This document shows, one piece after another, positions 2,686-20,294 of a DNA stretch of 23,343 bases. The translations under genes were made by a program, and so were the position numbers. The notes under the pieces are model-generated. The model did not search any database, had not been told where the DNA came from, and saw only the letters and a program-made list of their open reading frames with translations. Each line of letters begins with the position of its first letter. The stretch's first letter is position 1. The DNA is from a virus (lineage: Duplodnaviria > Heunggongvirae > Uroviricota > Caudoviricetes): the IMG/VR virus record IMGVR_UViG_2531839529_000008; one strand, given 5' to 3'.

Positions 2686-2724
2686 CGCAAAGTCTCCGCA
2701 ATTACACGCAAGAAAAAACCGCCA

Positions 2725-2975: not shown

Positions 2976-3404
2976 TTATTCAATATCTATTCCTGTAATA
3001 TCTTTTATCTTTTTCCTTGCAAAGCCTTTTGCTAGTGATTTTGAAACACTCATAAGTGTACTAATTCCCTCATCCTTAAAGTTTGTTTTTATAGCTTGCC
3101 AGACATCCTTTTGACGTAAGTCAGCAATAAAATCATGCCCTCTTGCTGTCAACCTCAGTGGTACTTCGATCCAACTATATCCAACACCTTCCCCTAACGC
3201 TTTGGACAATATATGACCGAACCCAGGTTTTCCATCAACCCTGACTATTAATTCGTAGTCACATAATAATCGCATATGGAAAATAAAATCTTGGTCATAT
3301 CTATTAAAGCCATTATCCTCTAGTTCACTAAGCATCGTGTCAGGGCCACGAGTTTTTTCGAATGCGATAAGTAGATCTTTTAGATATTGCTGGTCTAATT
3401 TCAT
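2976..3404 (-). CDS. Hypothetical protein (142 aa), AT-rich accessory gene in the ea region
   Basis: Track ORF; GGAGG Shine-Dalgarno about 6 nt upstream of the ATG at 3404; function not recognised. Confidence 0.6.
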   Translation of the reverse strand: MKLDQQYLKDLLIAFEKTRGPDTMLSELEDNGFNRYDQDFIFHMRLLCDYELIVRVDGKPGFGHILSKALGEGVGYSWIEVPLRLTARGHDFIADLRQKDVWQAIKTNFKDEGISTLMSVSKSLAKGFARKKIKDITGIDIE

Positions 3405-4064: not shown

Positions 4065-4679
4065 TTATCTAAAAGTCTTTCCACTTTTAACATCTAGGTA
4101 TATTCTGTTCGACAACGTCATTCCTCCGCAATATGTGAAATAGATGTTTTCACCCTTATTGCTTGATGCCATCCACCCTCCGATTTCCTTAAAATCGCTT
4201 TCCGTGCAGACCCCTTCATTTATTAACTTCCTAGCTGCCGAAGAAAACTCTTTTTTGTATATACGGTAGTCATCAGATCCTTTGATTAAAGTATCATCTC
4301 CGCTCGCATTTTCAGCAGGATCTGATGGCCTTTCACTGCTAAGATCACTAAGTTTAACCCATTCTGAAAACTTGCCATTAACGATTCCATTTTTTCTTGT
4401 GCAGGATTTATTACCTTCTTTAATATATTCGCTTTCCCCTCCAACACATGAGGCTGAATATGGCTCAGTTATACGAACCCATTCACCTTTTTTTTCTAGA
4501 AAATCTACGCCTTCCCTGAAAAATAGTTTCCCAGCCACTCCACATTTACTTGAAGGGCAGGTATGTCTTTCCGTTCGATCAACAACAACCCATAGTTTTG
4601 ATTCATTTTTTGCCATTGCCGATGGTATTTGAGATGAGACAATTAACGTAAGCCCTAAAATTAGTATTGATTTTTTCAT
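4065..4679 (-). CDS. Secreted or periplasmic Cys-rich protein of unknown function (204 aa)
   Basis: Track ORF; N-terminal signal peptide MKKSILILGLTLIVSSQIPSAMA with AMA-K cleavage motif; six Cys in the mature part; AAGGA Shine-Dalgarno 8 nt upstream; AT-rich. Confidence 0.65.
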   Translation of the reverse strand: MKKSILILGLTLIVSSQIPSAMAKNESKLWVVVDRTERHTCPSSKCGVAGKLFFREGVDFLEKKGEWVRITEPYSASCVGGESEYIKEGNKSCTRKNGIVNGKFSEWVKLSDLSSERPSDPAENASGDDTLIKGSDDYRIYKKEFSSAARKLINEGVCTESDFKEIGGWMASSNKGENIYFTYCGGMTLSNRIYLDVKSGKTFR

Positions 4680-4977
4680 TGTAATTTCCTTTTACTTTTT
4701 ACAAAGCGTTTAATCATGGCTGATTATCTCTAAGTGTAGTAACAGCCTTGTGCGAAACATGTTACCAAATCGCCATTTCAGTGTATCCGCAGTTAGGCTG
4801 CCACTTCAAGGATTCCTAATTACATGGTACGTAAGCGTAAAATCCCGTTGGTTGGCGGGTAATAACTCTGATCAAATCTCCCTTGTCTTTTGCTCTTACG
4901 TATGCAGCTCTTGTGTATTCAACCCAGGCCTCCAGTTCAGCAATACGCTTACTTCCATCCGAGATAACACCTTCTAC

Positions 4978-5229
4978 TCACGCTGCTCGTTGAGTTTTGA
5001 TTTTTGCTGTCTCCAGCTCAACACGCAGTTTCCCCACCGTTAGCGCAATATCCTCGTTCTCCTGGTCGCGGCGTTTGATGTATTGCTGGTTTCTTTCCCG
5101 TTCATCCAGCAGTGTCAGCACAATCGATGGTGTTACCAGCTCATGGAAAAGGTCCGCGTCAAATCCCCAGTTGTCAGGCATTGCCTGCTCTGCCGCTTCA
5201 CGCAGTGCCTGAGAGTGAATTACGCTCAC
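4978..5229 (-). CDS. Hypothetical protein (83 aa) at the lambda ea22 position, ending at an in-frame TGA that is followed by 53 further sense codons
   Basis: Track ORF; start overlaps the stop of the upstream TraR-like gene (ATGA); hand translation beyond the TGA (4819-4977) stays open and protein-like. Confidence 0.5.
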   Translation of the reverse strand: MSVIHSQALREAAEQAMPDNWGFDADLFHELVTPSIVLTLLDERERNQQYIKRRDQENEDIALTVGKLRVELETAKIKTQRAA

Positions 5230-5447
5230 TTCGAACCTCTCTGTTTACTGATAAGCTCCAGATCTTCCTGGCAACTTGCACAAGTCCGACAACCCTGAAC
5301 GGCCAGGCGTCTTAGCTCATCTATGGGATCGCCACACTCACAACAATGAGTGGCAGATACAGCCTGGTGGTTCAGGCGGCGCATTTTTATTGCTGTGTTG
5401 CGCTGTAATTCTTCAATTTCTGATGCTGAATCAATGATGTCTGCCAT
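5226..5447 (-). CDS. TraR/DksA-family C4 zinc-finger protein (73 aa), lambda Orf73-like
   Basis: Track ORF; CxxC-x17-CxxC motif (CECGDP...CRTCASC); same size and position as the lambda TraR-like orf73. Confidence 0.7.
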   Translation of the reverse strand: MADIIDSASEIEELQRNTAIKMRRLNHQAVSATHCCECGDPIDELRRLAVQGCRTCASCQEDLELISKQRGSK

Positions 5448-5545
5448 CTTCCATTAATCCCTGAATTGTTGGTTAATACGCTTGGGGGTAAATGCGAGCA
5501 ATAAAAAAGGAGCCTGTAGCTCCCTGATAATTTTGCTTTTCATGT

Positions 5546-5827
5546 TCATCGTTCCTTAAAGACGCCGTTTAACATGCCGATTGCCAGGCTTAAATGAGTC
5601 GGTGTGAATCCCATCAGCGTTACCGTTTCGCGGTGCTTCTTCAGTACGCTACGGCAAATGTCATCGACGTTTTTATCCGGAAACTGCTGTCTGGCTTTTT
5701 TGATTTCAGAATTAGCCTGACGGGCAATGCTGCGAAGGGCGTTTTCTTGCTGAGGTGTCATTGAACAAGCCCCATGTCGGCAAGCATAAGCACACAGAAT
5801 ATGAAGCCCGCTGCCAGAAAAATGCAT
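5546..5827 (-). CDS. Hypothetical early protein at the lambda orf61 position (alternative start at 5761 gives 71 aa)
   Basis: Track ORF in the pL operon upstream of exo; start codon uncertain. Confidence 0.45.
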   Translation of the reverse strand: MHFSGSGLHILCAYACRHGACSMTPQQENALRSIARQANSEIKKARQQFPDKNVDDICRSVLKKHRETVTLMGFTPTHLSLAIGMLNGVFKER

Positions 5828-5837
5828 TCAGTGGTTG

Positions 5838-6029
5838 TCATACCTGGTCTCTCTCATCTGCTTCTGCTTTCGCCACCATCATTTCCAGCTTTTGTGAAAG
5901 GGATGCGGCTAACGTATGAAATTCTTCGTCTGTTTCTACTGGTATTGGCACAAACCTGACTCCAATTTGAGCGAGGCTATGTGCCATCTCGATACACGTT
6001 CTTAACTCAACAGGAGATGCTTTGTGCAT
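5838..6029 (-). CDS. Hypothetical early protein (63 aa) at the lambda orf63 position
   Basis: Track ORF; size and position relative to exo match lambda orf63. Confidence 0.5.
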   Translation of the reverse strand: MHKASPVELRTCIEMAHSLAQIGVRFVPIPVETDEEFHTLAASLSQKLEMMVAKAEADERDQV

Positions 6030-6190
6030 ACAGCCCCCCGTTTATTATTTATCTCCTCAGCCAGCCGCTGTGCTTTCAGGGGATTTCTGATAACAGAAAG
6101 GCCGGGAAATACCCAGCCTCGCTTTGTAACGGAGTAGACGAAAGTGATCGCACCTACCCGGATATTATCGTGAGGATGCTTCATCGCCAT
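6002..6190 (-). CDS. Hypothetical early protein (62 aa) at the lambda orf60a position
   Basis: Track ORF immediately upstream of and overlapping the exo start. Confidence 0.5.
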
Positions 6191-6861
6191 TGCTCCCCAA
6201 ATACAAAACCAATTTCAGCCAGTGCCTCGTCCATTTTTTCGATGAACTCCGGCACCATCTCGTCAAAACTCGCCATGTACTTTTCATCCCGCTCAACCAC
6301 GACATAATGCAGGCCTTCACGCTTCATACGCGGGTCATAGTTGGCAAAGTACCAGGCATCTTTTCGCGTCACCCACATGCTGTACTGCACCTGGGCCATG
6401 TAAGCCGACTTTATGGCCTCGAAACCACCGAGCCGGAACTTCATGAAATCCCGGGAGGTAAACGGGCATTTCAGCTCAAGGCCATTGCCGTCACTGCATA
6501 AACCATCGGGAGAGCAGGCGGTACGCATACTTTCGTCGCGATAGATGATCGGGGATTCAGTAACATTCACGCCGGAAGTGAATTCAAACAGAGTTCTGGC
6601 GTCGTTCTCGTACTGTTTTCCCCATGCCAGCGCCTTAGCATTAACTTCCGGAGCCACACCGGTGCAAACCTCAGCCAGCAGGGTGTGGAAGTAGGACATT
6701 TTCATGTCAGGCCACTTTTTTCCGGAGCGGGGTTTTGCTATCACATTGTGAACTTCTGAAGCGGTGATGACGCCGAGCCGTAATTTGTGCCACGCATCAT
6801 CCCCCTGTTCGACAGCTCTCACGTCGATTCCGGTACGCTGCAGGATAATGTCCGGTGTCAT
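6181..6861 (-). CDS. exo: Lambda-type exonuclease (Red alpha)
   Basis: 226-aa ORF; translation recognised as lambda Exo; overlaps bet as in lambda. Confidence 0.95.
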
Positions 6862-7643
6862 GCAGCCACCTTCTGCTCAGTGGCTTTCTGTTTCAGGAAT
6901 CCAAGAGCTTTCACTGCTTCGGCCTGTGTCAGTTCTGACGATGCGCGAATGTCGCGGCGAAATATCTGGGAACAGAGCGGCAATAAGTCGTCATCCCATG
7001 TTTTATCCAGGGCAATCAGCAGAGTGTTAATCTCCTGCATGGTTTCATCGTTAACCGGAGTGATGTCGCGTTCCGGCTGACGTTCTGCAGTGTATGCGGT
7101 ATTTTCGACAATGCGCTCGGCTTCATCCTTGTCATAGATACCAGCAAATCCGAAGGCGAGACGGGCACACTGAATCATGGCTTTATGCCGTAACATCCGT
7201 TTGGGATGCGACTGCCACGGCCCCGTGATTTCTCTGCCTTCGCGGGTTTTGAATGGTTCGCGGCGGCATTCATCCATCCACTCGGTAACGCAGATCGGAT
7301 GATTGCGGTCTTTGCGGTAAATCCGGCATGTGCAGGATTCATTGTCCTGCTCAAAGTCCATGCCATCAAACTGCTGGTTTTCATTGATGATACGGGACCA
7401 GCCATCAACGCCCACCACCGGAACGATGCCGTTCTGCTTGTCAGGGAAGGCGTAAATTTCTTTCGTCCACGGATTAAGGCCGTACTGGTTGGCGACGATC
7501 AGCAATGCGATGAACTGCGCATCGCTGGCATCACCTTTAAATGCCGTCTGGCGAAGAGTGGTGATCAGTTCCTGTGGGTCGACAGAATCCATGCCGACGC
7601 GTTCAGCCAGCTTCCCAGCCAGCGTTGCGAGTGCTGTACTCAT
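6858..7643 (-). CDS. bet: Red beta single-strand annealing protein
   Basis: 261-aa ORF; translation recognised as lambda Bet. Confidence 0.95.
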
Positions 7644-7648
7644 CCGTT

Positions 7649-8065
7649 TTATACCTCTGAATCAATATCAACCTGGTGGTGAGCAATGGTTTCAACCATG
7701 TACCGGATGTGTTCTGCCATGCGCTCCTGAAACTCAACATCGTCATCAAACGCACGGGTAATGGCTTTTTTGCTGGCCCCGTGGCGTTGTAAATGATCGA
7801 TGCAGAGTGATTCAAACAGGTGCTGGGGCAGACCTTTTTCCATGTCGTCTGCCAGTTCTGCCTCTTTCTCTTCACGGGCGATCTGCTGGTAGTGACGCGT
7901 CCAGCTCTGAGCCTCAAGACGATCCTGAATGTAATAAGCGTTCATGGCTGAACTCCTGAAATAGCTGTGAAAATATCGCCCGCGAAATGCCGGGCTGATT
8001 AGGAAAACAGGAAAGGAGGTTAGTGAATGCTTTTGCTTGATCTCAGTTTCAGTATTAATATCCAT
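7649..8065 (-). CDS. gam: Gam, RecBCD inhibitor
   Basis: 138-aa ORF; translation recognised as lambda Gam. Confidence 0.9.
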
Positions 8066-8163
8066 TTTTTATAAGCGTCGACGGCCTCACGAAACATCTT
8101 TTCATCGCCAATAAAAGTGGCGATAGTGAATTTAGTCTGGATAGCCATAAGTGTTTGATCCAT
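8020..8163 (-). CDS. kil: Kil (FtsZ inhibitor), 47 aa
   Basis: Internal Met of track ORF 8020-8289; [47 protein letters not shown] recognised as lambda Kil. Confidence 0.8.
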
Positions 8164-8296
8164 TTTTTGGGACTCCTGGCTGATTAAGTATGTCGATAAG
8201 GCGTTTCCATCCGTCACGTAATTTACGGGTGATTCGTTCAAGTAAAGATTCGGAAGGGCAGCCAGCAACAGGCCACCCTGCAATGGCATATTGCAT
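8132..8296 (-). CDS. cIII: CIII, FtsH protease inhibitor, 54 aa
   Basis: Hand translation from the ATG at 8296 begins MQYA and ends ...GYPD with TAA at 8132-8134, in a different frame from kil; below the track cutoff. Confidence 0.8.
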   Translation of the reverse strand: MQYAIAGWPVAGCPSESLLERITRKLRDGWKRLIDILNQPGVPKNGSNTYGYPD

Positions 8297-8368
8297 GGTG
8301 TGCTCCTTATTTATACATAACGAAAAACGCCTCGAGTGAAGCGTTATTGGTATGCGGTAACGCCGCGC

Positions 8369-8737
8369 TCAGGCGGCTTTGATAGTCATATCATCTGAAT
8401 CAAATATTCCTGATGTATCGATATCGGTAATTCTTATTCCTTCGCTACCATCCATTGGAGGCCATCCTTCCTGACCATTTCCATCATTCCAGTCGAACTC
8501 ACACACAACACCATATGCATTTAAGTCGCTTGAAATTGCTATAAGCAGAGCATGTTGCGCCAGCATGATTAATACAGCATTTAATACAGAGCCGTGTTTA
8601 TTGAGTCGGTATTCAGAGTCTGACCAGAAATTATTAATCTGGTGAAGTTTTTCCTCTGTCATTACGTCATGGTCGATTTCAATTTCTATTGATGCTTTCC
8701 AGTCGTAATCAATGATGTATTTTTTGATGTTTGACAT
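8369..8737 (-). CDS. ea10: Ea10-like early protein (122 aa)
   Basis: Track ORF; size and position match lambda ea10. Confidence 0.75.
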   Translation of the reverse strand: MSNIKKYIIDYDWKASIEIEIDHDVMTEEKLHQINNFWSDSEYRLNKHGSVLNAVLIMLAQHALLIAISSDLNAYGVVCEFDWNDGNGQEGWPPMDGSEGIRITDIDTSGIFDSDDMTIKAA

Positions 8738-8755
8738 CTATTCATATCCTCACAG

Positions 8756-8782
8756 ATAAAAAATCGCCCTCACATTGGAGGG
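8756..8782 (-). terminator. Hairpin (gccctc/gagggc) followed by a U-run on the minus strand, just upstream of ea10 in the leftward operon
   Basis: Read directly: plus strand aaaaaatcgccctcacattggagggc. Confidence 0.45.
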
Positions 8783-8997
8783 CAAAGAAGATTTCCAATA
8801 ATCAGAACAAGTCGGCTCCTGTTTAGTTACGAGCGACATTGCTCAGTGTATTCACTCGTTGGAATGAATACACAGTGCAGTGTTTATTAGTATGCCTGTC
8901 TTTTAACCACATCAGGCTCGGTGGTTCTCGTGTACCCCTACAGCGAGAAATCGGATAAACTCTATTCACCCCTACAGAGAGCAAAAGAGAAACGCCG

Positions 8998-9579
8998 ATG
9001 AACAACTCATGGTGGCAGGAACTAATGCATTTTTTCCTGCAAGGAATGACACTTAAACAGTTGATTCATATGCTAATCATCCTAATCATATTGATTATTG
9101 TTATGCCTGTAAGCGTAAAAGAATGGATAAACCTGCATAATCCAGAAATCCTTCCTCATTACTGGATGTATTACATCCTGTTGTTTTGCGTTAGCTATGT
9201 GCTTAACGGCGTTGTTAATTCCGCTTATCACGCTGTGACTGAAAGAATTGAGATATTCGCTGCTCAGAAGCGCAAATCTAAAGAAGAGAAATACGTGCAA
9301 GATTTGTTTGATTCGTTAACTCTTGGAGAAAGAGCGTATTTGGCATTCGCTGTAGCCGCTAATAACCAGCTAAAGACAGAAAAGGGAAGCCCTGAAGCAA
9401 TCTCATTGCTCGAAAAAGGGCTTCTTATTCGGGTACCTTCTGCTACTGGATATCCTGAAATCGACCGTTTTGTTATCCCGGAACGCTATAGAAATGAGTG
9501 CTACATTAGGTTTGCTGGGAAGAAAGACAGTCTTATGGATGAACTTATCGCTCAGGATAAGCATGGCAAAAACAAGTAA
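8998..9579 (+). CDS. sieB: SieB-like superinfection exclusion membrane protein (193 aa)
   Basis: Track ORF; two strongly hydrophobic segments (LIHMLIILIILIIVMPV, YWMYYILLFCVSYVLNGVV); recognised as lambdoid SieB; convergent with N. Confidence 0.8.
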   Translation: MNNSWWQELMHFFLQGMTLKQLIHMLIILIILIIVMPVSVKEWINLHNPEILPHYWMYYILLFCVSYVLNGVVNSAYHAVTERIEIFAAQKRKSKEEKYVQDLFDSLTLGERAYLAFAVAANNQLKTEKGSPEAISLLEKGLLIRVPSATGYPEIDRFVIPERYRNECYIRFAGKKDSLMDELIAQDKHGKNK

Positions 9580-9595
9580 TTAGCAAATTAATTTA

Positions 9596-9868
9596 TCATC
9601 TCGCCGTCAGTTGTTTTGATTTCCGGTAGCCTGCCGCGTAAATGGCTACGTTTGGCAGGCAAATACTTCCACTGCATTCATCTGCCTTCTTGCAGCGAAG
9701 GCTTCCGAGTGATGCTGCTTTGTCTGCTCTGACGCAACCAGAGAGCTTTAGCGCAATTTTTCGCGCCAGTCGCTGTTCTTGCATTGCCTGCTCACGTTGA
9801 GCCTGTCTGCGTGCTCTGCGGCGATTTCTGGCGTTATCGTCAGCCAGATATGTAATGACTACTGCCAT
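9596..9868 (-). CDS. N: N-type transcription antiterminator (90 aa), not lambda N; resembles P22 gene 24 / phage 21 N
   Basis: Track ORF first gene downstream of PL/nutL; N-terminal arginine-rich motif NARNRRRARRQAQREQ; C-terminus LPNVAIYAAGYRKSKQLTAR resembles P22 gp24. Confidence 0.8.
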   Translation of the reverse strand: MAVVITYLADDNARNRRRARRQAQREQAMQEQRLARKIALKLSGCVRADKAASLGSLRCKKADECSGSICLPNVAIYAAGYRKSKQLTAR

Positions 9869-9975
9869 GTTGACCTCCGATGATTGACTTTGGCGGTGAC
9901 GCGCCGGGTGCTTATCTTCCGGTTGCCGTCGTGCAGCTGCACTTCACGTCACCCCAAAGCCAACTACTCTTTGGT

Positions 9976-10016
9976 TCCCGCATTTCGGCGGGACAATCCC
10001 ATCAATGTTAAAGAGC
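9976..10016 (-). promoter_or_regulatory. nutL: nutL: boxB hairpin (TCCCGCCGAAATGCGGGA on the minus strand, 9976-9993) and boxA-like GCTCTTTAACA (10006-10016)
   Basis: Identical 18-nt hairpin recurs at nutR (11127-11150); boxA-like element adjacent; location between PL and N. Confidence 0.7.
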
Positions 10017-10056
10017 CTGCCAATCTGTTCCGTTTGGCTACCAGCGTCCTGCCGAT

Positions 10057-10144
10057 GACTTAAATTTAAGATTTCTTTAACTATTGGTCAAGAGCGTTTT
10101 TGAAGAAAACTTAAATTTTGTTGCGAAGCTTAAGTTTTGCTTTG
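10057..10144 (-). promoter_or_regulatory. OL/PL region: PL -35 TTGACC (comp 10086-10091), 17-nt spacer, -10 TAAATT (comp 10063-10068); overlapping P22-type operator half-sites
   Basis: Promoter hexamers and operator ATTTAAGATTTCTTTAAC (10064-10081) read directly. Confidence 0.65.
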
Positions 10145-10150
10145 ATTTTT

Positions 10151-10180
10151 AAAGGAAAGAAAAAAAGGGGCGAATGCCCC
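10151..10180 (-). terminator. Rho-independent terminator immediately downstream of c2 (hairpin ggggcgaatgcccc plus U-run)
   Basis: Perfect inverted repeat 10167-10180 with an A-run at 10155-10166 on the plus strand, giving a U-run on the minus transcript. Confidence 0.7.
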
Positions 10181-10831
10181 TTATGGAAGGTTTGCTATTT
10201 TTGCATCGACAACTACACCGATGATTTTGCAGTTCCCGTTGATCTCAATCATCGGATATTGTGGGTTAAGTGGTTTTAGAAACCTTCTGCCAGCATCAAT
10301 AACTAACTTCTTGAAAGTTGCCTCGTTTTCTCCTTCGAGCTTTGCCACTACCAGCTTCCCATTACGAGGTTCTACTTCAGGATCGACTAGTATTATCATC
10401 CCTTCCGGGATGCTAAGACCGGCTGGAGCCGTCATCGAATCACCCTTTACGTCCAGCCAAAACGAATCTTCTGAACAATCTACGGTTGTATCGTACCAGT
10501 TATCTATTGCACGCTTATGATATGGCTCTACAGCTTCCATCCAACATCCTGCGCTTACCCAACTAATTAGAGGATACGAACCTCTTGGATCATGCCTGCT
10601 GTGATAGGCAATGTTTGAAAGACTATCTTCTCCTTTCAACAAGTAATCAGGGGAGCACTGTAAAGCCTTGGCTAAAGCCAATAGGTTTTCGCCATTGGGC
10701 TCAGTTTCAGAACGCTCCCATTGGGAAATAGCAACATTAGACACGCCAACCATCTTGCCAAGGGCAGCCTGCCTAATCTTAAGTTCTTTTCTGCGAGCGC
10801 GAATACGCTCACCCATCAGTTGTGTATTCAT
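10181..10831 (-). CDS. c2: P22 C2-type phage repressor (HTH N-domain, LexA-like autocleavage C-domain)
   Basis: 216-aa ORF; translation recognised as near-identical to P22 C2 (QAALGKMVGVSNVAISQWERSE helix-turn-helix). Confidence 0.93.
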   Translation of the reverse strand: MNTQLMGERIRARRKELKIRQAALGKMVGVSNVAISQWERSETEPNGENLLALAKALQCSPDYLLKGEDSLSNIAYHSRHDPRGSYPLISWVSAGCWMEAVEPYHKRAIDNWYDTTVDCSEDSFWLDVKGDSMTAPAGLSIPEGMIILVDPEVEPRNGKLVVAKLEGENEATFKKLVIDAGRRFLKPLNPQYPMIEINGNCKIIGVVVDAKIANLP

Positions 10832-10911
10832 AGTTAAGACATCTTAAATAAACTTGACTTAAGATTCCTTTGATAGATAATTTAAGTGTTCTTTAATTTC
10901 GGAGCGAGTCT
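10832..10911. promoter_or_regulatory. OR region with three 18-bp operators (10832-10849, 10857-10874, 10880-10897) and PR (-35 TTGACT 10854-10859, -10 ATAATT 10877-10882)
   Basis: Operator half-site pattern AnTnAAG-N4-CTTnAnT read three times; PR has a 17-nt spacer and faces cro. Confidence 0.75.
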
Positions 10912-11097
10912 ATGTACAAGAAAGATGTTATCGACCACTTCGGAACCCAGCGTGCGGTAGCTAAAGCGTTAGGCATTAGCGATGCAGCAGTCTCTCAGTG
11001 GAAGGAAGTCATCCCAGAGAAAGACGCCTATCGACTGGAAGTCGTTACAGCTGGCGCCCTGAAGTATCAAGAAAGTGCTTATCGCAAAGCGGCATAA
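10912..11097 (+). CDS. cro: Cro, P22 type (61 aa)
   Basis: Track ORF; translation recognised as P22 Cro. Confidence 0.93.
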   Translation: MYKKDVIDHFGTQRAVAKALGISDAAVSQWKEVIPEKDAYRLEVVTAGALKYQESAYRKAA

Positions 11098-11103
11098 GCA
11101 AAT

Positions 11104-11150
11104 TGCTCTTTAACAGTCATGGTCCTTATTCCCGCCGAAATGCGGGAATA
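11104..11150 (+). promoter_or_regulatory. nutR: nutR: boxA-like TGCTCTTTAACA (11104-11115) and boxB hairpin (11127-11150)
   Basis: Same boxB core as nutL, downstream of cro. Confidence 0.7.
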
Positions 11151-11205
11151 CAACGCGCATCAGTTGGTGCGTATAACTTCTTATTTGTTAAGGAAATACT
11201 TACAT

Positions 11206-11484
11206 ATGCAACTTACAAGTACTCGCAAGAAAGCGAATGCAATCACAAGCAACATCCTGAATCGAATTGCTGTACGTGGTCAGCGAAAGGTTGCTGATGC
11301 ATTAGGGATTAATGAATCGCAAATTTCGCGATGGAAAGACAGCTTTATCCCAAAGATGGCCATGCTTCTGGCTGTGCTGGAGTGGGGTGTTGAAGACGAG
11401 GAATTAGCAAAGCTAGCAAAGAAAGTAGCCATGGTGCTGACAAAAGAAAAGCCTCAAGACTGCTGCAACAGTTTTGAGGCCTGA
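11206..11484 (+). CDS. c1: C1 (lambda CII-like) lysogeny establishment activator, 92 aa
   Basis: Internal start of track ORF 11119-11484 (MQLTSTRKK...), preceded by AAGGA; shares the CII-family motif SQISRWK...MLLAVLEWGV. Confidence 0.85.
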   Translation: MQLTSTRKKANAITSNILNRIAVRGQRKVADALGINESQISRWKDSFIPKMAMLLAVLEWGVEDEELAKLAKKVAMVLTKEKPQDCCNSFEA

Positions 11485-11508
11485 TGTAGAAAGACTGGAT
11501 CAATCCAC
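11441..11508 (-). ncRNA. oop: Candidate OOP-like antisense RNA overlapping the 3' end of c1, with terminator hairpin at 11451-11480
   Basis: Minus-strand hairpin followed by a U-rich run (plus 11441-11450 caaaagaaaa); 5' end placed by analogy to lambda pO; lambda-like sequence around the O start. Confidence 0.4.
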
Positions 11509-11518
11509 AGGAGTCATT

Positions 11519-12418
11519 ATGACAAATACAGCAAAAATACTCAACTTCGGCAGAGGTAACTTTACCGGACAGGAGCGTAATGTGGCAGATCTCGATGATG
11601 GTTACGCCAGACTATCAAATATGCTGCTTGAGGCTTATTCAGGCGCAGATCTGACCAAGCGACAGTTTAAAGTGCTGCTTGCCATTCTGCGTAAAACCTA
11701 TGGGTGGAATAAACCAATGGACAGAATCACCGATTCTCAACTTAGCGAGATTACAAAGTTACCTGTCAAACGGTGCAATGAAGCCAAGTTAGAACTCGTC
11801 AGAATGAATATTATCAAGCAGCAAGGCGGCATGTTTGGACCAAATAAAAACATCTCAGAATGGTGTATCCCTCAAAACGAGGGAAAATCCCCTAAAACGA
11901 GGGATAAAACATCCCTCAAATTGGGGGATTGCTATCCCTCAAAACAGGGGGACACAAAAGACACTATTACAAAAGAAAAAAGAAAAGATTATTCGTCCGA
12001 GAATTCTGGCGAATCCTCTGACCAGCCAGAAAACGATCTTTCTGTGGTTAAACCGGATGCTGCAATTCAGAGCGGCAGTAAGTGGGGAACAGCAGAAGAC
12101 CTGACCGCCGCAGAGTGGATGTTTGACATGGTGAAGACCATCGCGCCATCAGCCAGAAAACCGAATTTTGCTGGGTGGGCTAACGATATCCGCCTGATGC
12201 GTGAACGTGACGGACGTAACCACCGCGATATGTGTGTGCTTTTCCGCTGGGCCTGCCAGGACAACTTCTGGTCCGGTAACGTGCTGAGTCCGGCCAAACT
12301 CCGCGACAAGTGGACCCAGCTCGAAATCAACCGTAACAAGCAACAGGCTGGCGTGACAGCCGGAAAACCAAAACTCGACCTGACAAACACTGACTGGATT
12401 TACGGGGTGGATCTATGA
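11519..12418 (+). CDS. O: Replication initiator O, lambda type (299 aa)
   Basis: Translation from MTNTAKILNF recognised as lambda O; contains the ori iterons. Confidence 0.95.
   Translation: MTNTAKILNFGRGNFTGQERNVADLDDGYARLSNMLLEAYSGADLTKRQFKVLLAILRKTYGWNKPMDRITDSQLSEITKLPVKRCNEAKLELVRMNIIKQQGGMFGPNKNISEWCIPQNEGKSPKTRDKTSLKLGDCYPSKQGDTKDTITKEKRKDYSSENSGESSDQPENDLSVVKPDAAIQSGSKWGTAEDLTAAEWMFDMVKTIAPSARKPNFAGWANDIRLMRERDGRNHRDMCVLFRWACQDNFWSGNVLSPAKLRDKWTQLEINRNKQQAGVTAGKPKLDLTNTDWIYGVDL
11867..11952 (+). repeat. Lambda-type replication origin: four about 18-bp iterons (ATCCCTCAAAACGAGGGA-like) inside O, followed by an A/T-rich stretch
   Basis: Four tandem degenerate copies read directly at about 11867-11884, 11888-11904, 11910-11927 and 11933-11952. 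Confidence 0.9.
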
Positions 12419-13116
12419 AAAACATCGCCGCACAGATGGTTAACTTTGACCGTGAGCAGATGCGTCGGATCGCCAACAACATGCCGGAACAGTACGACGA
12501 AAAGCCACAGGTACAGCAGGTAGCGCAGATCATCAACGGTGTGTTCAGCCAGTTACTGGCAACTTTCCCGGCGAGTCTGGCTAACCGTGACCAGAACGAA
12601 CTGAACGAAATCCGCCGCCAGTGGGTTCTGGCTTTCCGGGAAAACGGGATCACCACAATGGAACAGGTTAACGCAGGAATGCGCGTAGCCCGTCGGCAGA
12701 ATCGACCATTTCTGCCATCACCCGGGCAGTTTGTTGCATGGTGCCGGGAAGAAGCATCCGTTATCGCCGGACTGCCAAACGTCAGCGAGCTGGTTGATAT
12801 GGTTTACGAGTATTGCCGGAAGCGAGGCCTGTATCCGGATGCGGAGTCTTATCCGTGGAAATCAAACGCGCACTACTGGCTGGTTACCAACCTGTATCAG
12901 AACATGCGGGCCAATGCGCTTACTGATGCGGAATTACGGCGCAAGGCTGCCGATGAACTGACCTGTATGACAGCGCGAATTAACCGTGGTGAGACGATAC
13001 CTGAACCAGTAAAACAACTTCCTGTTATGGGCGGTAGACCTCTAAATCGTGCACAGGCTCTGGCGAAGATCGCAGAAATTAAAGCTAAGTTCGGACTGAA
13101 AGGAGCAAGTGTATGA
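12415..13116 (+). CDS. P: Replication protein P (DnaB helicase loader), lambda type
   Basis: 233-aa ORF; start overlaps the O stop (ATGA); translation recognised as lambda P. Confidence 0.95.
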   Translation: MKNIAAQMVNFDREQMRRIANNMPEQYDEKPQVQQVAQIINGVFSQLLATFPASLANRDQNELNEIRRQWVLAFRENGITTMEQVNAGMRVARRQNRPFLPSPGQFVAWCREEASVIAGLPNVSELVDMVYEYCRKRGLYPDAESYPWKSNAHYWLVTNLYQNMRANALTDAELRRKAADELTCMTARINRGETIPEPVKQLPVMGGRPLNRAQALAKIAEIKAKFGLKGASV

Positions 13117-13403
13117 CGGGCAAAGAGGCAATTATTCATTACCTGGGGACGCATAATAGCTTCTGTGCGCCGGACGTTGCCGCGCTAACAGGCGCAACAG
13201 TAACCAGCATAAATCAGGCCGCGGCTAAAATGGCACGGGCAGGTCTTCTGGTTATCGAAGGTAAGGTCTGGCGAACGGTGTATTACCGGTTTGCTACCAG
13301 GGAAGAACGGGAAGGAAAGATGAGCACGAACCTGATTTTTAAGGAGTGTCGCCAGAGTGCCGCGATGAAACGGGTATTGGCGGTATATGGAGTTAAAAGA
13401 TGA
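13113..13403 (+). CDS. ren: Ren (96 aa)
   Basis: Track ORF overlapping the P stop; recognised as lambda Ren. Confidence 0.85.
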   Translation: MTGKEAIIHYLGTHNSFCAPDVAALTGATVTSINQAAAKMARAGLLVIEGKVWRTVYYRFATREEREGKMSTNLIFKECRQSAAMKRVLAVYGVKR

Positions 13404-13428
13404 CCATCTACATTACTGAGCTAATAAC

Positions 13429-13460
13429 AGGCCTGCTGGTAATCGCAGGCCTTTTTATTT
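13429..13460 (+). terminator. Rho-independent terminator between ren and ninB (tR2 position)
   Basis: Hairpin aggcctgc...gcaggcct (13429-13452) followed by TTTTTATTT. Confidence 0.7.
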
Positions 13461-13476
13461 GGGGGAGAGGGAAGTC

Positions 13477-13913
13477 ATGAAAAAACTAACCTTTGAAATT
13501 CGATCTCCAGCACATCAGCAAAACGCTATTCACGCAGTACAGCAAATCCTTCCAGACCCAACCAAACCAATCGTAGTAACCATTCAGGAACGCAACCGCA
13601 GCTTAGACCAAAACAGGAAGCTATGGGCCTGCTTAGGTGACGTCTCTCGTCAGGTTGAATGGCATGGTCGCTGGCTGGATGCAGAAAGCTGGAAGTGTGT
13701 GTTTACCGCAGCATTAAAGCAGCAGGATGTTGTTCCTAACCTTGCCGGGAATGGCTTTGTGGTAATAGGCCAGTCAACCAGCAGGATGCGTGTAGGCGAA
13801 TTTGCGGAGCTATTAGAGCTTATACAGGCATTCGGTACAGAGCGTGGCGTTAAGTGGTCAGACGAAGCGAGACTGGCTCTGGAGTGGAAAGCGAGATGGG
13901 GAGATCGGGCTGC

Positions 13914-13917
<4 letters not shown>
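13477..13917 (+). CDS. ninB: NinB (146 aa)
   Basis: Internal start MKKLTFEIRSP of track ORF 13459-13917; recognised as lambda NinB. Confidence 0.9.
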
Positions 13918-15564
<1,647 letters not shown>

Positions 15565-15690
15565 TATGGCACCTGTGTTGTTCTGAGGTGAGCATATCAC
15601 CTCTGTTCAGGTGGCCAAATTCAGTAAACCACAACATACCGTATCCAAAGCGGCATTGATGGCGATCGGGCAGGGCGTCAGGAGGGCGGC

Positions 15691-17535: not shown

Positions 17536-18060
17536 TTATTGTTTAACCCATAATAATTCATTGACATTGAATCCCAACTTTTGAGCGGTTCGCACATAGT
17601 CTGCTTTTACTTTATCTGGAATAGTTGGGGTCCTTGCCAGAATCCATAGGTATTCTCTGTTCGGACCACTGACAAGAGCATACTTATACTCATCATCCAG
17701 TTTGATTACATTATAGCCACCATAGAAGGGGCCAAAAAACGAAACCTTCAATGCTGCAGTTTTAGTATCTCCAGTAAAGTATGCTTTACCTTCGCTCTCG
17801 CTCCATTTATTTTTCGTTGGATCGTATCCACGGTTAAGTACACGAATCCCTCCGTCGTTCCGTTTTCCATAAGTAGCGCTGACCTGTTCCAGACCACGTT
17901 CGAACCGGTTCTCGAGGCGAGCTATTTCATACCATTTTCCGAGGTAGCGGTTGGCGTCAAAATTTGTAATCGGCTGCACACCTTTAGGTGGTGTCGGGGC
18001 CTTACATGCTATAAGAGTGAAAGAGAGTGCAATGCCAGTCAACACAGGCCATAACTTCAT
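17536..18060 (-). CDS. Blc-like bacterial lipocalin, outer-membrane lipoprotein (174 aa)
   Basis: Track ORF; lipobox LIAC; lipocalin motifs (NFDANRYLGKWYEIAR, TAALKVSFFGPFYGGYNVI) recognised as a paralogue of E. coli Blc; transcribed opposite to late genes. Confidence 0.85.
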   Translation of the reverse strand: MKLWPVLTGIALSFTLIACKAPTPPKGVQPITNFDANRYLGKWYEIARLENRFERGLEQVSATYGKRNDGGIRVLNRGYDPTKNKWSESEGKAYFTGDTKTAALKVSFFGPFYGGYNVIKLDDEYKYALVSGPNREYLWILARTPTIPDKVKADYVRTAQKLGFNVNELLWVKQ

Positions 18061-18252
18061 AATAAATCCTGTACTTTTGATAGTTGAGAGTAAGTATGAA
18101 AGATAGATGATTACGACCGATCACTTAAAGAACTTTCATACTATATTAGGAATAGTCCATAACAGAAAAATTGTCAGTGATGACGCCAGAAAGGCAATTT
18201 ATTCCGTGCACTACACAGTTTATGTGTTAATGAATTAGTCAAGGGGGAGAAT

Positions 18253-19212
18253 ATGATAAAAAAACCTGTGATTGGAATCAGCGGTTGTTTGGCCGGTTCT
18301 GCTGTTCGTTTTGATGGTGGTCACAAAAGAGCTGACTTTTTAATGGACAAATTAGTGGAATGGGTAACATTCAGACCAGTATGTCCGGAAATGGCTATAG
18401 GGCTGCCAGTTCCGCGTCCTGCTCTACGTCTTGTGCGCTCGATGCAAGGAAATATACGGATGTGTTTCAGCCACGACCAGAATGAGGATGTGACAGAGAG
18501 AATGACAGAGTTTAGTCGTTCTTATATGGACAAATTAAAGGATGTATCGGGGTTTGTGGTTTGTGCTAAATCTCCCAGCTGTGGCATGGAGCGCGTGCGT
18601 GTCTATGATGAAAATGGTAATCGAGGTCGTAAAGATGGAGTGGGACTATTTACGAGCACTTTGATGGAAAAGTTTTCCTGGCTACCGGTTGAAGAGGATG
18701 GGCGATTACATGATCCAGTGCTTCGTGAGAATTTTGTTGAAAGAGTTTTTGCTTTGCATGAGCTCAATCACCTTTACAAGGAGAAATTATCAAGAAGAGA
18801 GTTATTAGCTTTTCATAGTCGTTATAAGCTTCAGTTGTTGGCGCATAGTCAGGCAGGCTATAAAGATATGGGACCATTTGTGGCTGCAATACACGAGTGG
18901 GCGGACCTTGAATCATACTTTGAGGTGTATCGTGATAAGCTGATGGCGATTCTCAGAAAACCTGCATCACGTAAAAATCACACGAATGTGCTGATGCATA
19001 TACAGGGGTATTTTAGTAACTACTTAAGTACACGCCAGCGTAAAGAGTTGAGCGAGGTTATACTTAACTATCGTTCTGGCACATTACCTCTTCTTGCGCC
19101 GTTGACTCTGCTGAAGCATTATCTGGGTGAGTATCCTAATGATTACTTGCTTACACAGAATTACTTCGATCCCTATCCGGACGAACTGGCTCTAAGACTG
19201 ATGGTAAATTAA
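18253..19212 (+). CDS. DUF523 (TudS-like Fe-S desulfidase) fused to DUF1722, 319 aa; RudS/YbgA-like
   Basis: Track ORF with strong Shine-Dalgarno (AAGGGGGAGAATATG); conserved Cys residues in the N-terminal half (GISGCLAG, VCPEM, SPSCGME); domain call from memory. Confidence 0.7.
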   Translation: MIKKPVIGISGCLAGSAVRFDGGHKRADFLMDKLVEWVTFRPVCPEMAIGLPVPRPALRLVRSMQGNIRMCFSHDQNEDVTERMTEFSRSYMDKLKDVSGFVVCAKSPSCGMERVRVYDENGNRGRKDGVGLFTSTLMEKFSWLPVEEDGRLHDPVLRENFVERVFALHELNHLYKEKLSRRELLAFHSRYKLQLLAHSQAGYKDMGPFVAAIHEWADLESYFEVYRDKLMAILRKPASRKNHTNVLMHIQGYFSNYLSTRQRKELSEVILNYRSGTLPLLAPLTLLKHYLGEYPNDYLLTQNYFDPYPDELALRLMVN

Positions 19213-19563
19213 TTGTATGCGATATCATCCAAAAGGATGAGTTCCTGCATGCAGGATATTTACAATCGTAAAAACTACACTATGATACCCAGAGTGTCAG
19301 TTTGTATAAAAACTCTGTTTACGCTGAAGAAACAATTGAGATGCAACTTAAAGTTGGTAAACATGCCAGTCAAAATATATAATATTATGATTCCACGCAG
19401 CTATATATAATATAACAGATTGGTTTAATAATTTGTCTTTGTGAGTTAAATACATAATTTTATACTTGTGATGTAATGAAATTTTCCTTATTGTTGAACT
19501 GGCGAATATTGATTTTCCACCTATACTTACCTGGTGTAACCCCAATGATATCAGGTGGATAAT

Positions 19564-20294
19564 ATGCCATACATATGTTCTATCATTTTGGTGTTGAATT
19601 CGTTTGATGTCCGAATTGGTAAAGAAGATATTTTGTTTAAAAAAGGAAATGCTGTTCTCATTGATTACAATTTAAAAGATTTTTTTCATCAAATATAGAT
19701 CATGTAATGATCGTAGATGTTGAAGAAAAAACAGTTAATGATTTCTTTAAAAGCAACACACTCTCACCTTTTTCTGTAAGAAGGTTTTATCCGGCATACT
19801 TGATGGTGGAATGTGAAGATTTTTCATTGTTAAAGAACTTGATTGCATGCTTGAATTGTGATGGCAGAACTGTGGATTTTGTTAGAAATCAAATATCACT
19901 TGCATGTCTTGCTATCTTATCTTCAGAGAAAATAGTGCAAAGTTTTTTATTTGGATGTCTTAATAGTTTAGGAAGTAAAGTTAAGGCTATTATTCACACG
20001 GATATATCTGCAGCATGGAGACTTTGTGATATATCTTCAAGACTGTATCTGAGTGAAAGTCTGTTAAAAAGAAAATTAAAGCACGAAGGCTTATCATTTA
20101 GTAAGTTAATTCTTGAAGAGCGAATGGTGATGGCGGAAAGCTTATTAAGCTACAATTTATATTCTGTTGGAAAAGTTGCTGAGATATGCGGTTATGAAAA
20201 CACGTCATATTTTGTAAGTGTTTTCAGAAGGTATTTTGGTGTTCCTCCCCATCAATATTCATCAAGATTTTTTTTAGAAAAAGACATGATGTAA
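19564..20294 (+). pseudogene. AppY-like AraC-family transcriptional regulator, disrupted: 44-codon N-terminal fragment (19564-19698) then a 195-aa C-terminal ORF (19707-20294) in another frame
   Basis: C-terminal AraC-type HTH (GYENTSYFVSVFRRYFGVPPHQY); N-terminal fragment MPYICSIILVLNSFDVRIGKEDILFKKGNAVLI resembles the AppY N-terminus; stops in all three frames at 19696-19712; very AT-rich. Confidence 0.6.

What the first reader, a model, noticed from the sequence alone, without database searches (positions are those of the whole stretch)
9596..11484. Immunity module is P22-type and carries its own N/nut specificity inside a lambda backbone
c2, cro and c1 match the P22 repressor, Cro and C1, with three operator sites on each side carrying P22-style half-sites. 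The N protein has a distinct arginine-rich motif, and the two boxB hairpins (identical 18-nt core at 9976-9993 and 11127-11150) differ from lambda boxB. There is no rexA/rexB between N and the repressor. The module is flanked by lambda-type recombination and replication genes, indicating modular exchange at the usual junctions.
Basis: partly seen in the sequence, partly recalled or inferred. Interest (0 to 1): 0.35.

Follow-up and report, generated by a model that had tools for sequence, protein, structure and literature searches.

The report
Phage 21/P22 immunity, HK620 N/nut, lambda backbone
This is an ordinary, widespread E. coli lambda-like prophage whose control region is a patchwork of already-sequenced parts: a phage 21/P22-type repressor switch, a phage HK620-type antiterminator with its RNA target, and a P22-type exclusion gene.

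Summary
Window 8978-11493 is a non-lambda block in a prophage at the lambda attachment site. It holds sieB, N, nutL, PL/OL, the repressor, OR/PR, cro, nutR and c1. On both sides lie about 97-98% lambda exo-bet-gam-kil-cIII-ea10 and O-P-ren-ninB.

The repressor, Cro and six operators are the P22 C2 / phage 21 cI type, and closest to phage 21 (98.6% and 96.7% amino-acid identity, against 93% and 95% for P22; lambda cI 35%). An identical 19-nt boxB hairpin lies in the transcribed orientation downstream of PL and of PR, and there is no rexAB.

The block is not one P22-derived unit, and the N/nut specificity is not tied to the repressor. N is 87/90 identical to phage HK620 N, and both nut sites equal those annotated in the HK620 record. 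The 21/P22-type core (10064-11104) sits exactly between these HK620-like flanks.

In viral contigs this N and boxB pair flanks four different repressor families. The arginine-rich motif (ARM) type tracks the boxB type without exception in 94 loci.

The module occurs at 100% identity in many RefSeq E. coli genomes. Only the HK620-type ARM-boxB pair appears biochemically uncharacterised. Interest is low.

The parts
8998..9579 (+). sieB, P22-type superinfection exclusion gene, on the strand opposite the PL operon. It is the left end of the non-lambda block.
   Evidence: 84.4% amino-acid and 88.3% nucleotide identity to P22 sieB; 23% to lambda sieB. Pfam SieB PF14163, E=1e-25. Lambda homology ends at 8977.
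9596..9868 (-). N antiterminator, 90 aa, a three-part mosaic. Residues 1-33 (9770-9868) are an HK620/N7-type ARM. Residues 34-62 are shared with phage 21, HK620, HK629 and N7. Residues 63-90 are an HK620/HK629-type C-terminus that resembles P22 gp24.
   Evidence: 87/90 identical to HK620 N. Pfam N_peptide PF25694, E=2e-15. Per-segment identities; alignment.
9975..9993 (-). nutL boxB hairpin: stem UCCCGC/GCGGGA with loop CGAAAU.
   Evidence: Exact 19-mer, 0 expected by chance. Folds at -9.7 kcal/mol. Identical to the annotated HK620 nutL.
10006..10016 (-). nutL boxA (GCTCTTTAACA), of the phage 21/P22 type.
   Evidence: matches the boxA-L annotated in phage 21.
10063..10091 (-). PL promoter: -35 TTGACC, -10 TAAATT.
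   Evidence: Promoter scan, 9/12. Position is homologous to PL in phage 21 and HK620. HK620 homology ends at 10063.
10064..10145 (.). OL1 (10064-10081), OL2 (10099-10116) and OL3 (10128-10145): 18-bp P22/21-type operators.
   Evidence: Pattern hits; alignment to the OL1-3 annotated in phage 21.
10165..10182 (-). Intrinsic terminator just after the repressor gene (tIMM).
   Evidence: Terminator scan: 7-bp stem followed by a T-run. Conserved in phage 21, P22, HK629 and N7.
10181..10831 (-). Prophage repressor of the P22 C2 / phage 21 cI type: HTH N-terminal domain plus S24 autopeptidase C-terminal domain.
   Evidence: 98.6% to phage 21 cI and 93.1% to P22 C2. N-terminal domain 66/68 identical to the solved P22 C2 DNA-binding domain 1ADR/2R1J. 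Pfam HTH_3 and Peptidase_S24.
10832..10897 (.). OR3 (10832-10849), OR2 (10857-10874) and OR1 (10880-10897). PR overlaps OR2 and OR1: -35 TTGACT at 10854-10859 and -10 GATAAT at 10876-10881.
   Evidence: 97.5% identical to the phage 21 OR region and 95% to P22.
10912..11097 (+). cro, P22-type.
   Evidence: 100% to phage N7 Cro, 96.7% to phage 21, 95.1% to P22. 58/61 to the solved P22 Cro 1RZS. Pfam P22_Cro.
11105..11148 (+). nutR: boxA at 11105-11115 and boxB at 11130-11148. HK620 homology resumes at 11105.
   Evidence: Matches the annotated HK620 nutR at 44 of 46 positions.
11206..11484 (+). c1/cII lysogeny-establishment activator, P22 C1 / HK620 cII type.
   Evidence: 89.1% to P22 C1 and 23.6% to phage 21 cII. 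91.8% nucleotide identity to HK620 cII. Pfam Phage_CII, E=2e-44.
11239..11252 (-). TTGC-N6-TTGC, the presumed cII/C1 binding site of pRE, inside the 5' end of c1.
   Evidence: Same position as the cII sites annotated in phage 21, HK620 and HK630. The count in the window is not above chance, so the assignment rests on position.

Best explanation
What it is. The region is the early-control region of a lambdoid prophage integrated at att-lambda. It was assembled by homologous or illegitimate exchange from at least four sequence lineages that are all already known:
1. Lambda-type flanks: int-xis, exo through ea10, and O, P, ren, ninB.
2. A P22-type sieB.
3. HK620-type N, nutL, nutR and c1.
4. A phage 21/P22-type core (OL-tIMM-c2-OR-cro), set exactly between PL/nutL and nutR.

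Inferred mechanism in the lysogen, by homology:
- The C2-type repressor binds the three 18-bp operators at OR and at OL and so shuts PR and PL.
- It is lost by RecA-stimulated self-cleavage (S24 domain).
- Its DNA-binding domain is identical to that of phage 21 cI and 66/68 identical to P22 C2. The prophage should therefore confer imm21/immC-type immunity, not lambda immunity.

Inferred mechanism after induction, by homology:
- The PL and PR transcripts carry boxA plus a boxB hairpin with the loop CGAAAU.
- The N-terminal ARM of N (..DNARNRRRARRQAQREQ..) binds this boxB.
- With the host Nus factors, N makes RNA polymerase read through terminators into the lambda-type recombination and replication genes.
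- C1 acts at TTGC-N6-TTGC sites (pRE at 11239-11252, and a pI-position site at 2698-2711).
- SieB aborts superinfecting phages.

What is shown and what is inferred. Shown here: the anatomy, the identities, the junctions, the linkage of ARM type with boxB type, and the independence of N/nut from repressor type. Inferred: binding, immunity specificity and antitermination activity.
For: - Gene content and identities.
- Mosaic junctions: lambda 4931-8888, 8893-8977 and 11494-13917; HK620 9600-10063 and 11105-11526. Per-segment table.
- The nut sites equal those annotated in HK620.
- The boxB copies are exact, correctly oriented and fold as hairpins.
- Operators are enriched.
- The N-terminal domain of the repressor and Cro match the solved P22 C2 and Cro structures.
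- Of 74 viral contigs with this N and exact boxB on both sides, 34 carry a 21/P22-type repressor, 27 an HK620-type repressor, and 11 and 2 carry two other types.
- ARM against boxB in 94 distinct loci: of 54 loci with the HK620 ARM, 52 have HK620 boxB at nutL and 51 at nutR, and none has phage 21 boxB. Of 40 loci with the phage 21 ARM, 40 have phage 21 boxB at nutL and 36 at nutR, and none has HK620 boxB.
- Pantoea and Erwinia phages with diverged N proteins keep the ARM core and an invariant CGAAAU loop, while the stem varies and includes a compensatory G-C to A-U change.
- The module is 100% identical in many RefSeq E. coli chromosomes. 253 genomes cover at least 80% of it.
Against: - Nothing here is functional evidence. 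Immunity specificity, N-boxB binding and antitermination are inferred from homology.
- OL1 differs from the phage 21 and P22 OL1 at 4 of 18 positions.
- The ARM-boxB association could partly reflect physical linkage, since the ARM codons lie only about 110 bp from nutL. The nutR copy, however, is separated from them by an exchangeable core of 1.1-1.7 kb.
- That phage 21 and P22 immC share immunity specificity is my recollection of the 1970s literature. I could not confirm it in the library.
- The prophage carries an IS insertion in the nin region, so it may not be fully viable.
Confidence: 0.9

Rival explanations
1. Single-donor model. The whole block from N to c1 came as one immC module from a P22-like phage and brought its own matched N/nut system with it.
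For: P22 has the same gene order, sieB-24-c2-cro-c1, with no rexAB. P22 aligns over 8893-9658 and 10000-11526. The C-terminus of N resembles P22 gp24.
Against: P22 is the best match for sieB only. The ARM segment does not align with P22 at all, and the leader/nutL segment is only 67.7% identical. The core is 80-95% identical to P22 but closer to phage 21 or N7. HK620 homology stops and restarts exactly at the edges of the core. The same N/nut pair is found with four repressor families.
Confidence: 0.05
2. A natural lambda imm21 derivative. The prophage descends from a lambda x phage 21 type recombinant, like the laboratory lambda imm21. Only the N-terminal part of N, the two boxB elements, cII and sieB were replaced later.
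For: Phage 21 shares the flanks (5236-8888 at 96.9%, 11494-13917 at 97.9%). It also shares the same right junction, the middle of N (98.9%) and the core (c2 98.6% amino-acid identity).
Against: The core is only 84-94% identical to phage 21 at the nucleotide level (OR 97.5%), while the HK620-like flanks are 92-98% identical. The core is therefore not recently derived from phage 21 itself. This model is a variant history of the same mosaic rather than a different mechanism.
Confidence: 0.25
3. Decaying remnant. The N/nut and immunity elements are non-functional relics in a defective prophage.
For: An IS3-family element interrupts a nin-region methyltransferase gene. ral is missing.
Against: All five ORFs are full-length and match functional phage proteins. 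The promoters, operators, terminator and both nut sites are intact. The identical module occurs in isolated plaque-forming phages' relatives (N7, HK620) and in many genomes without the IS.
Confidence: 0.08

Closest known systems
Coliphage HK620 (AF335538; Clark et al. 2001): N, nutL, nutR, cII
   Same: N is 87/90 identical. nutL is identical to the annotated HK620 site and nutR matches it at 44 of 46 positions. cII is 91.8% identical at the nucleotide level. DNA is 97.6% identical over 9600-10063 and 92.2% over 11105-11526.
   Different: HK620 has an unrelated cI (about 41% identity), a lambda-like Cro, 17-bp operators and an extra gene (hkaS) between the nut sites. It has a P22-like virion backbone and lacks the P22-type sieB.
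Coliphage 21 and the laboratory hybrid lambda imm21 (OL657228, OM418625)
   Same: Repressor 98.6% and Cro 96.7% identical. OR is 97.5% identical. boxA and the middle of N are the same. The flanks are lambda-like, and the right junction after cII is the same.
   Different: Phage 21 has a different ARM (GTAKSRYKARRAE), a different boxB (loop CUAACC), a lambda-like C-terminus on N and an unrelated cII (24%). It has ral and no sieB at this position.
Salmonella phage P22 immC region (sieB-24-c2-cro-c1)
   Same: Same gene order and no rexAB. C2 93%, Cro 95%, C1 89% and SieB 84% identical. OR1 is identical. The C-terminus of N is similar. The P22 nutR boxB (ACCGCCGACAACGCGGU) resembles the window's boxB apart from one loop base.
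   Different: P22 has a different ARM (GNAKTRRHERRRK), a boxB with a GACAA pentaloop, gene 18/12 replication functions and erf/abc recombination functions.
Escherichia phage N7 (MH717096, Lederbergvirus)
   Same: It is the best single match to the finding's range: 92.7% over 94% of it. It has the same ARM, the same boxB at nutL and at nutR, a 21/P22-type c2, an identical Cro and a P22-type c1.
   Different: Its N has the 21/lambda-like C-terminus. It has no sieB, it has ral, and it has a P22-like backbone and a different O gene.
Phage lambda immunity region
   Same: Same architecture: N-nutL-PL/OL-repressor-OR/PR-cro-nutR-cII. The N/Nus antitermination logic and the TTGC-N6-TTGC cII sites are the same.
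   Different: cI 35%, Cro 26% and N 22% identical. Lambda has 17-bp operators, a boxB with a GAAAA/GAAGA pentaloop and rexAB.

Membership tests
P22 C2 / phage 21 cI-type immunity switch (immC / imm21) | Repressor with a P22 C2-type HTH DNA-binding domain and an S24 self-cleaving C-terminal domain | tested here: met
   N-terminal domain 66/68 identical to the solved P22 C2 domain. Identical to phage 21 cI through residue 104. Pfam HTH_3 and Peptidase_S24.
P22 C2 / phage 21 cI-type immunity switch (immC / imm21) | P22-type Cro | tested here: met
   Pfam P22_Cro, E=9e-28. 58/61 identical to PDB 1RZS.
P22 C2 / phage 21 cI-type immunity switch (immC / imm21) | Three 18-bp operators with ATTTAAG-type half-sites at OR and at OL, overlapping PR and PL | tested here: met
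   TTAAG-N4-CTT gives 6 hits in the two regions against 0.84 expected for the window. The sites align with the operators annotated in phage 21. Promoter overlap. OL3 is degenerate.
P22 C2 / phage 21 cI-type immunity switch (immC / imm21) | Cross-immunity with phage 21 or P22 immC, and heteroimmunity to lambda | not testable with these tools
   Needs plating of lambda imm21, lambda immP22 and lambda on a lysogen.
Lambda N-type processive antitermination (N plus nut) | Small basic N protein with an N-terminal arginine-rich motif | tested here: met
   Pfam N_peptide PF25694, 57.5 bits against a cut-off of 27.9. The ARM aligns with the lambda, P22 and phage 21 ARMs; A13, R16, R20 and R21 are invariant.
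Lambda N-type processive antitermination (N plus nut) | nut sites (boxA plus boxB hairpin) downstream of PL and of PR, in the transcribed orientation | tested here: met
   Positions are homologous to the nutL and nutR annotated in phage 21 and HK620.
Lambda N-type processive antitermination (N plus nut) | ARM type and boxB type vary together | tested here: met
   No discordant locus among 94. The loop is invariant and the stem shows compensatory change in Pantoea and Erwinia relatives. Linkage is a caveat for nutL.
Lambda N-type processive antitermination (N plus nut) | Nus-dependent read-through of terminators | not testable with these tools
   Needs a two-plasmid antitermination reporter or in vitro transcription.
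HK620-type N/nut specificity class | The HK620 ARM sequence and the boxB UCCCGC-CGAAAU-GCGGGA at both nut sites | tested here: met
   N is 87/90 identical and the boxB is identical at nutL and nutR.
P22 gp24 / boxB specificity | The P22 ARM (GNAKTRRHERRRKLAIER) and a GACAA pentaloop boxB | tested here: not met
   The ARM segment has no nucleotide homology to P22. The loop is CGAAAU, not GACAA. Cross-recognition is not excluded.
Lambda immunity (imm-lambda) | Lambda cI and Cro, 17-bp OR/OL operators, and rexAB downstream of cI | tested here: not met
   cI 34.9% and Cro 25.9% identical. No nucleotide homology to lambda between 8978 and 11493. No rexAB.
CII family lysogeny activator | Phage_CII fold and a TTGC-N6-TTGC site at the pRE position | tested here: met
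   PF05269, E=2e-44. Matches lambda CII structures at E=2e-23. Site at 11239-11252; its significance rests on position only.
SieB superinfection exclusion | SieB family membrane protein encoded next to N on the opposite strand | tested here: met
   PF14163, E=1e-25. 84.4% identical to P22 SieB. Same position as in P22 and lambda.

The most novel reading that the evidence does not exclude
The HK620-type ARM (DNARNRRRARRQAQREQ) and its boxB may form a fourth N-boxB recognition pair, biochemically uncharacterised and functionally orthogonal to the lambda, P22 and phage 21 pairs. The boxB is a 6-bp stem with an invariant CGAAAU loop, that is, a GAAA sequence flanked by an unpaired C and U. It may present a true GNRA tetraloop closed by a C-U mismatch. 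The lambda and P22 boxB, in contrast, are pentaloops that mimic GNRA by extruding a base. If so, it would be a new small peptide-RNA tethering pair and a natural test of how ARM peptides read GNRA-like folds. No paper in the library contains the ARM or boxB string, and no PDB entry matches.
Probability: 0.45. Interest if true: 0.3.

Novelty: already known. Interest (0 to 1): 0.12.

Why it matters
It matters little beyond correct annotation. The prophage should be labelled imm21/immC-type with HK620-type N/nut, not lambda-immune and not 'P22-derived'.

It is a clean textbook example of lambdoid mosaicism at three scales:
- Gene blocks, with junctions at sieB and just after cII.
- Regulatory cassettes. 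The operator-repressor-cro core swaps independently of the N/nut system that brackets it.
- Protein domains. Two ARM types and two C-terminal types of N occur in all four combinations, joined through a 98-99% conserved 87-nt middle segment.

The only open scientific point is that the HK620-type ARM-boxB pair seems never to have been characterised biochemically. It is widespread in E. coli and has recognisable relatives in Pantoea and Erwinia phages.

Tried and rejected
- Rfam scan of 8600-11800 at E<=1 gave only chance-level hits. There is no curated family for boxB or nut here.
- NCBIfam has no model that hits N, cII or SieB.
- phmmer of N against the PDB gave only spurious RNF168 hits.
- My first operator pattern had the wrong spacing (TTAAG-N5-CTT) and showed no enrichment. 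The corrected N4 spacing did.
- The count of TTGC-N6-TTGC sites is not above chance: 2 found, 2.0 expected. Only their positions support a function.
- Literature searches for the shared immunity of phage 21 and P22 found no explicit statement. The HK620 paper and Cocozaki et al. 2008 are not held. No paper contains the ARM or boxB string.
- The single P22 donor model was considered and rejected.
- A first Python run used a cII frame that was off by one base and gave nonsense identities. This was corrected.
Full report
Context. The window is E. coli chromosome. It starts with ybhC and continues into a lambdoid prophage integrated at the lambda attachment site. int/xis is 98.9% identical to lambda. 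The finding's range (9596-11484) holds four intact genes:
- N, 9596-9868 (-), 90 aa.
- A LexA-like repressor, 10181-10831 (-), 216 aa.
- cro, 10912-11097 (+), 61 aa.
- A cII-family gene, 11206-11484 (+), 92 aa.
Immediately to the left, on the + strand, is sieB (8998-9579).

Check of the observation.
- Repressor: 93.1% identical to P22 C2, but 98.6% to phage 21 cI and only 34.9% to lambda cI.
- Cro: 95.1% to P22, 96.7% to phage 21, 100% to phage N7.
- cII-family protein: 89.1% to P22 C1, 47.8% to lambda cII, 23.6% to phage 21 cII.
- The repressor's DNA-binding domain is 66/68 identical to the solved P22 C2 domain, and Cro is 58/61 identical to the solved P22 Cro.
- The operator core TTAAG-N4-CTT occurs 7 times in 23 kb, and 6 of these hits are in the two intergenic regions, against 0.84 expected. 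With the degenerate OL3 this gives OR3/2/1 at 10832-10849, 10857-10874 and 10880-10897, and OL1/2/3 at 10064-10081, 10099-10116 and 10128-10145.
- OR1 is identical in P22 and phage 21, and OR3 is identical to phage 21.
- PR and PL consensus matches overlap OR2/OR1 and OL1. An intrinsic terminator follows the repressor gene.
- The 19-mer TCCCGCCGAAATGCGGGAA occurs exactly twice, at 9975-9993 (-) and 11130-11148 (+). No match is expected by chance even with two mismatches. Each copy lies on the strand transcribed from PL or PR, 15-17 nt downstream of a boxA, GCTCTTTA(ACA). Each folds into a hairpin with the hexaloop CGAAAU.
- The 312 bp between the repressor gene and N contain no rexA or rexB.

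What it really is: a mosaic of known parts.
- Lambda homology (97-98%) runs from 4931 to 8888 and from 8893 to 8977, and resumes at 11494. That is 10 nt after the c1 stop and the same point at which phage 21 rejoins lambda. The non-lambda block is therefore 8978-11493. It begins with a P22-type sieB (84% amino-acid, 88% nucleotide identity), which the finding did not include.
- Within the block, the decisive comparison is with coliphage HK620. Window 9600-10063 (N, leader, nutL, up to the -10 of PL) is 97.6% identical to HK620. Window 11105-11526 (boxA of nutR through c1) is 92.2% identical. The intervening 10064-11104 has no HK620 homology at all.
- N is 87/90 identical to HK620 N. The window's nutL is identical to the nutL feature annotated in the HK620 GenBank record, and its nutR matches the annotated nutR at 44 of 46 positions.
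- The core 10064-11104 (OL, terminator, c2, OR, cro) is of the phage 21/P22 type. Nucleotide identities are c2 90% to phage 21 and 82% to P22; OR 97.5% and 95%; cro 93.5% and 91%.
- The best single relative over the finding's range is phage N7, at 92.7% over 94% of it.

N itself is a domain mosaic.
- Residues 1-33, the ARM, are of the HK620/N7 type and have no homology to 21, P22 or lambda.
- Residues 34-62 are 98-99% identical at the nucleotide level in phage 21, HK620, HK629 and N7.
- Residues 63-90 are of the HK620/HK629 type and resemble the P22 gp24 C-terminus.
- All four combinations of two ARM types and two C-terminal types exist among the window/HK620, N7, phage 21 and HK629. The conserved middle segment is the obvious crossover site.

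Is the N/nut system tied to the immunity core? No.
- I fetched 80 viral contigs that encode this N at 96% identity or more. In 74 of them the exact boxB 19-mer is present both upstream of N and on the opposite strand.
- The repressor between the two copies belongs to four different families: 34 of the 21/P22 type, 27 of the HK620 type, and 11 and 2 of two other types. The boxB-to-boxB distances are about 1155, 1697, 1741 and 1232 bp respectively.
- Conversely, the 21/P22-type repressor is found with three ARM/boxB types: phage 21 and HK629, P22, and the window and N7.

Is ARM-boxB a matched pair? The evidence supports it.
- Across 94 distinct loci, 52 of 54 loci with the HK620 ARM have the HK620 boxB at nutL and 51 have it at nutR. 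None has a phage 21 boxB.
- All 40 loci with the phage 21 ARM have the phage 21 boxB at nutL and 36 have it at nutR. None has an HK620 boxB.
- HK629 and the window are near-identical in N residues 34-90, the repressor and Cro. They differ in the ARM and in both boxB elements, so they are effectively a natural swap.
- Pantoea phage PA-1 and Erwinia phage vB_EhrS_49 have much-diverged N proteins. They keep the ARM core (NRRRA[RK]R) and an invariant CGAAAU loop at four more nut sites. Their stems vary and include a compensatory G-C to A-U change.
- The linkage caveat applies to nutL. It applies much less to nutR, which lies across an exchangeable core.

Mechanism (inferred by homology, not tested).
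- The C2-type repressor holds PR and PL shut through the six operators. It is inactivated by RecA-stimulated self-cleavage. The S24 domain is present, and the VSAG and GDSM motifs are visible in the sequence.
- Its DNA-binding domain is identical to that of phage 21 cI, so immunity should be imm21-type. I recall from the classical literature that this is shared with P22 immC, but I could not confirm it in the library.
- After induction, N binds the CGAAAU boxB on both early transcripts. With the Nus factors on boxA, it carries polymerase into the lambda-type recombination and replication genes.
- The P22/HK620-type C1 would act at TTGC-N6-TTGC sites at the pRE position (11239-11252) and at a pI-position site near xis (2698-2711).
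- SieB provides exclusion.

Novelty.
- Nothing here is new in kind. The exact module occurs at 100% identity in many RefSeq E. coli chromosomes, and 253 genomes cover at least 80% of it.
- Each component is annotated in published phage genomes.
- The only gap I could find concerns the HK620-type ARM-boxB pair. It appears in no open-access paper as a string, has no PDB entry and has no Rfam family.
- Its boxB equals the P22 nutR boxB minus one loop base, with a C-to-U change at the 3' loop edge. The loop may therefore be a plain GAAA tetraloop flanked by C and U. That structural idea is speculation.

Verdict. The feature is already known and of low interest.

Noticed in passing
window 14387-15636: A 1250-bp IS3-family element (transposase ORFs 14417-15235 and 15262-15600, both on the - strand) interrupts the 3' end of the nin-region DNA methyltransferase gene. 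It is absent from the closest genomes, and the flanks abut in strain MB46 with a 3-bp overlap.
   Followed up: partly
window 8889-8892: Relative to lambda, ral and orf28 (about 340 bp, lambda 34056-34395) are missing and replaced by 4 bp, between the ea10-side homology and the 85 bp that precede sieB.
   Followed up: partly
window 9596-9868; L005, L001, L003, L009: Two ARM types and two C-terminal types of N occur in all four combinations (window/HK620, N7, phage 21, HK629). They are joined through a middle segment (codons 34-62) that is 98-99% identical at the nucleotide level and is a likely recombination linker.
   Followed up: yes
L013, L038-L040, L047, L051, L055-L062 and others (IMG/VR); CUS-3, HK140, IME10: In many phages with this N, about 200-450 extra bp lie between the nutL boxB and the N start codon. 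The boxB is 330-580 nt upstream of N instead of 125 nt. The content of the insert was not examined.
   Followed up: no
L011 and L060 (IMG/VR): These two contigs encode the HK620-ARM N but have no boxB within the 600-900 nt available upstream. The cause (insertion or rearrangement) is unknown.
   Followed up: no
L170 about 4290-4310 and L171 about 4615-4640: The nutR boxB of Pantoea phage PA-1 and of Erwinia phage vB_EhrS_49 both carry a mismatch (C-A and C-C) at the same stem position. Their nutL copies are fully paired.
   Followed up: partly
window 2698-2711 (-): A second TTGC-N6-TTGC lies just upstream of xis, at the position of lambda pI. A P22/HK620-type C1 would thus be regulating a lambda-type int promoter.
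   Followed up: no
window 17536-20294: Between the Q-type antiterminator gene and the lysis genes lie cargo-like genes. In strain MB46 they are annotated as a lipocalin family gene (- strand), a YbgA/DUF523-DUF1722 gene and an HTH protein gene.
   Followed up: no
L002 about 3085-3110 (P22 nutR) compared with window 11130-11148: The P22 nutR boxB, ACCGCCGACAACGCGGU, and the window boxB, CCCGCCGAAAUGCGGG, share the stem core CCGC/GCGG and differ mainly by one loop base. This raises the possibility of partial cross-recognition.
   Followed up: no
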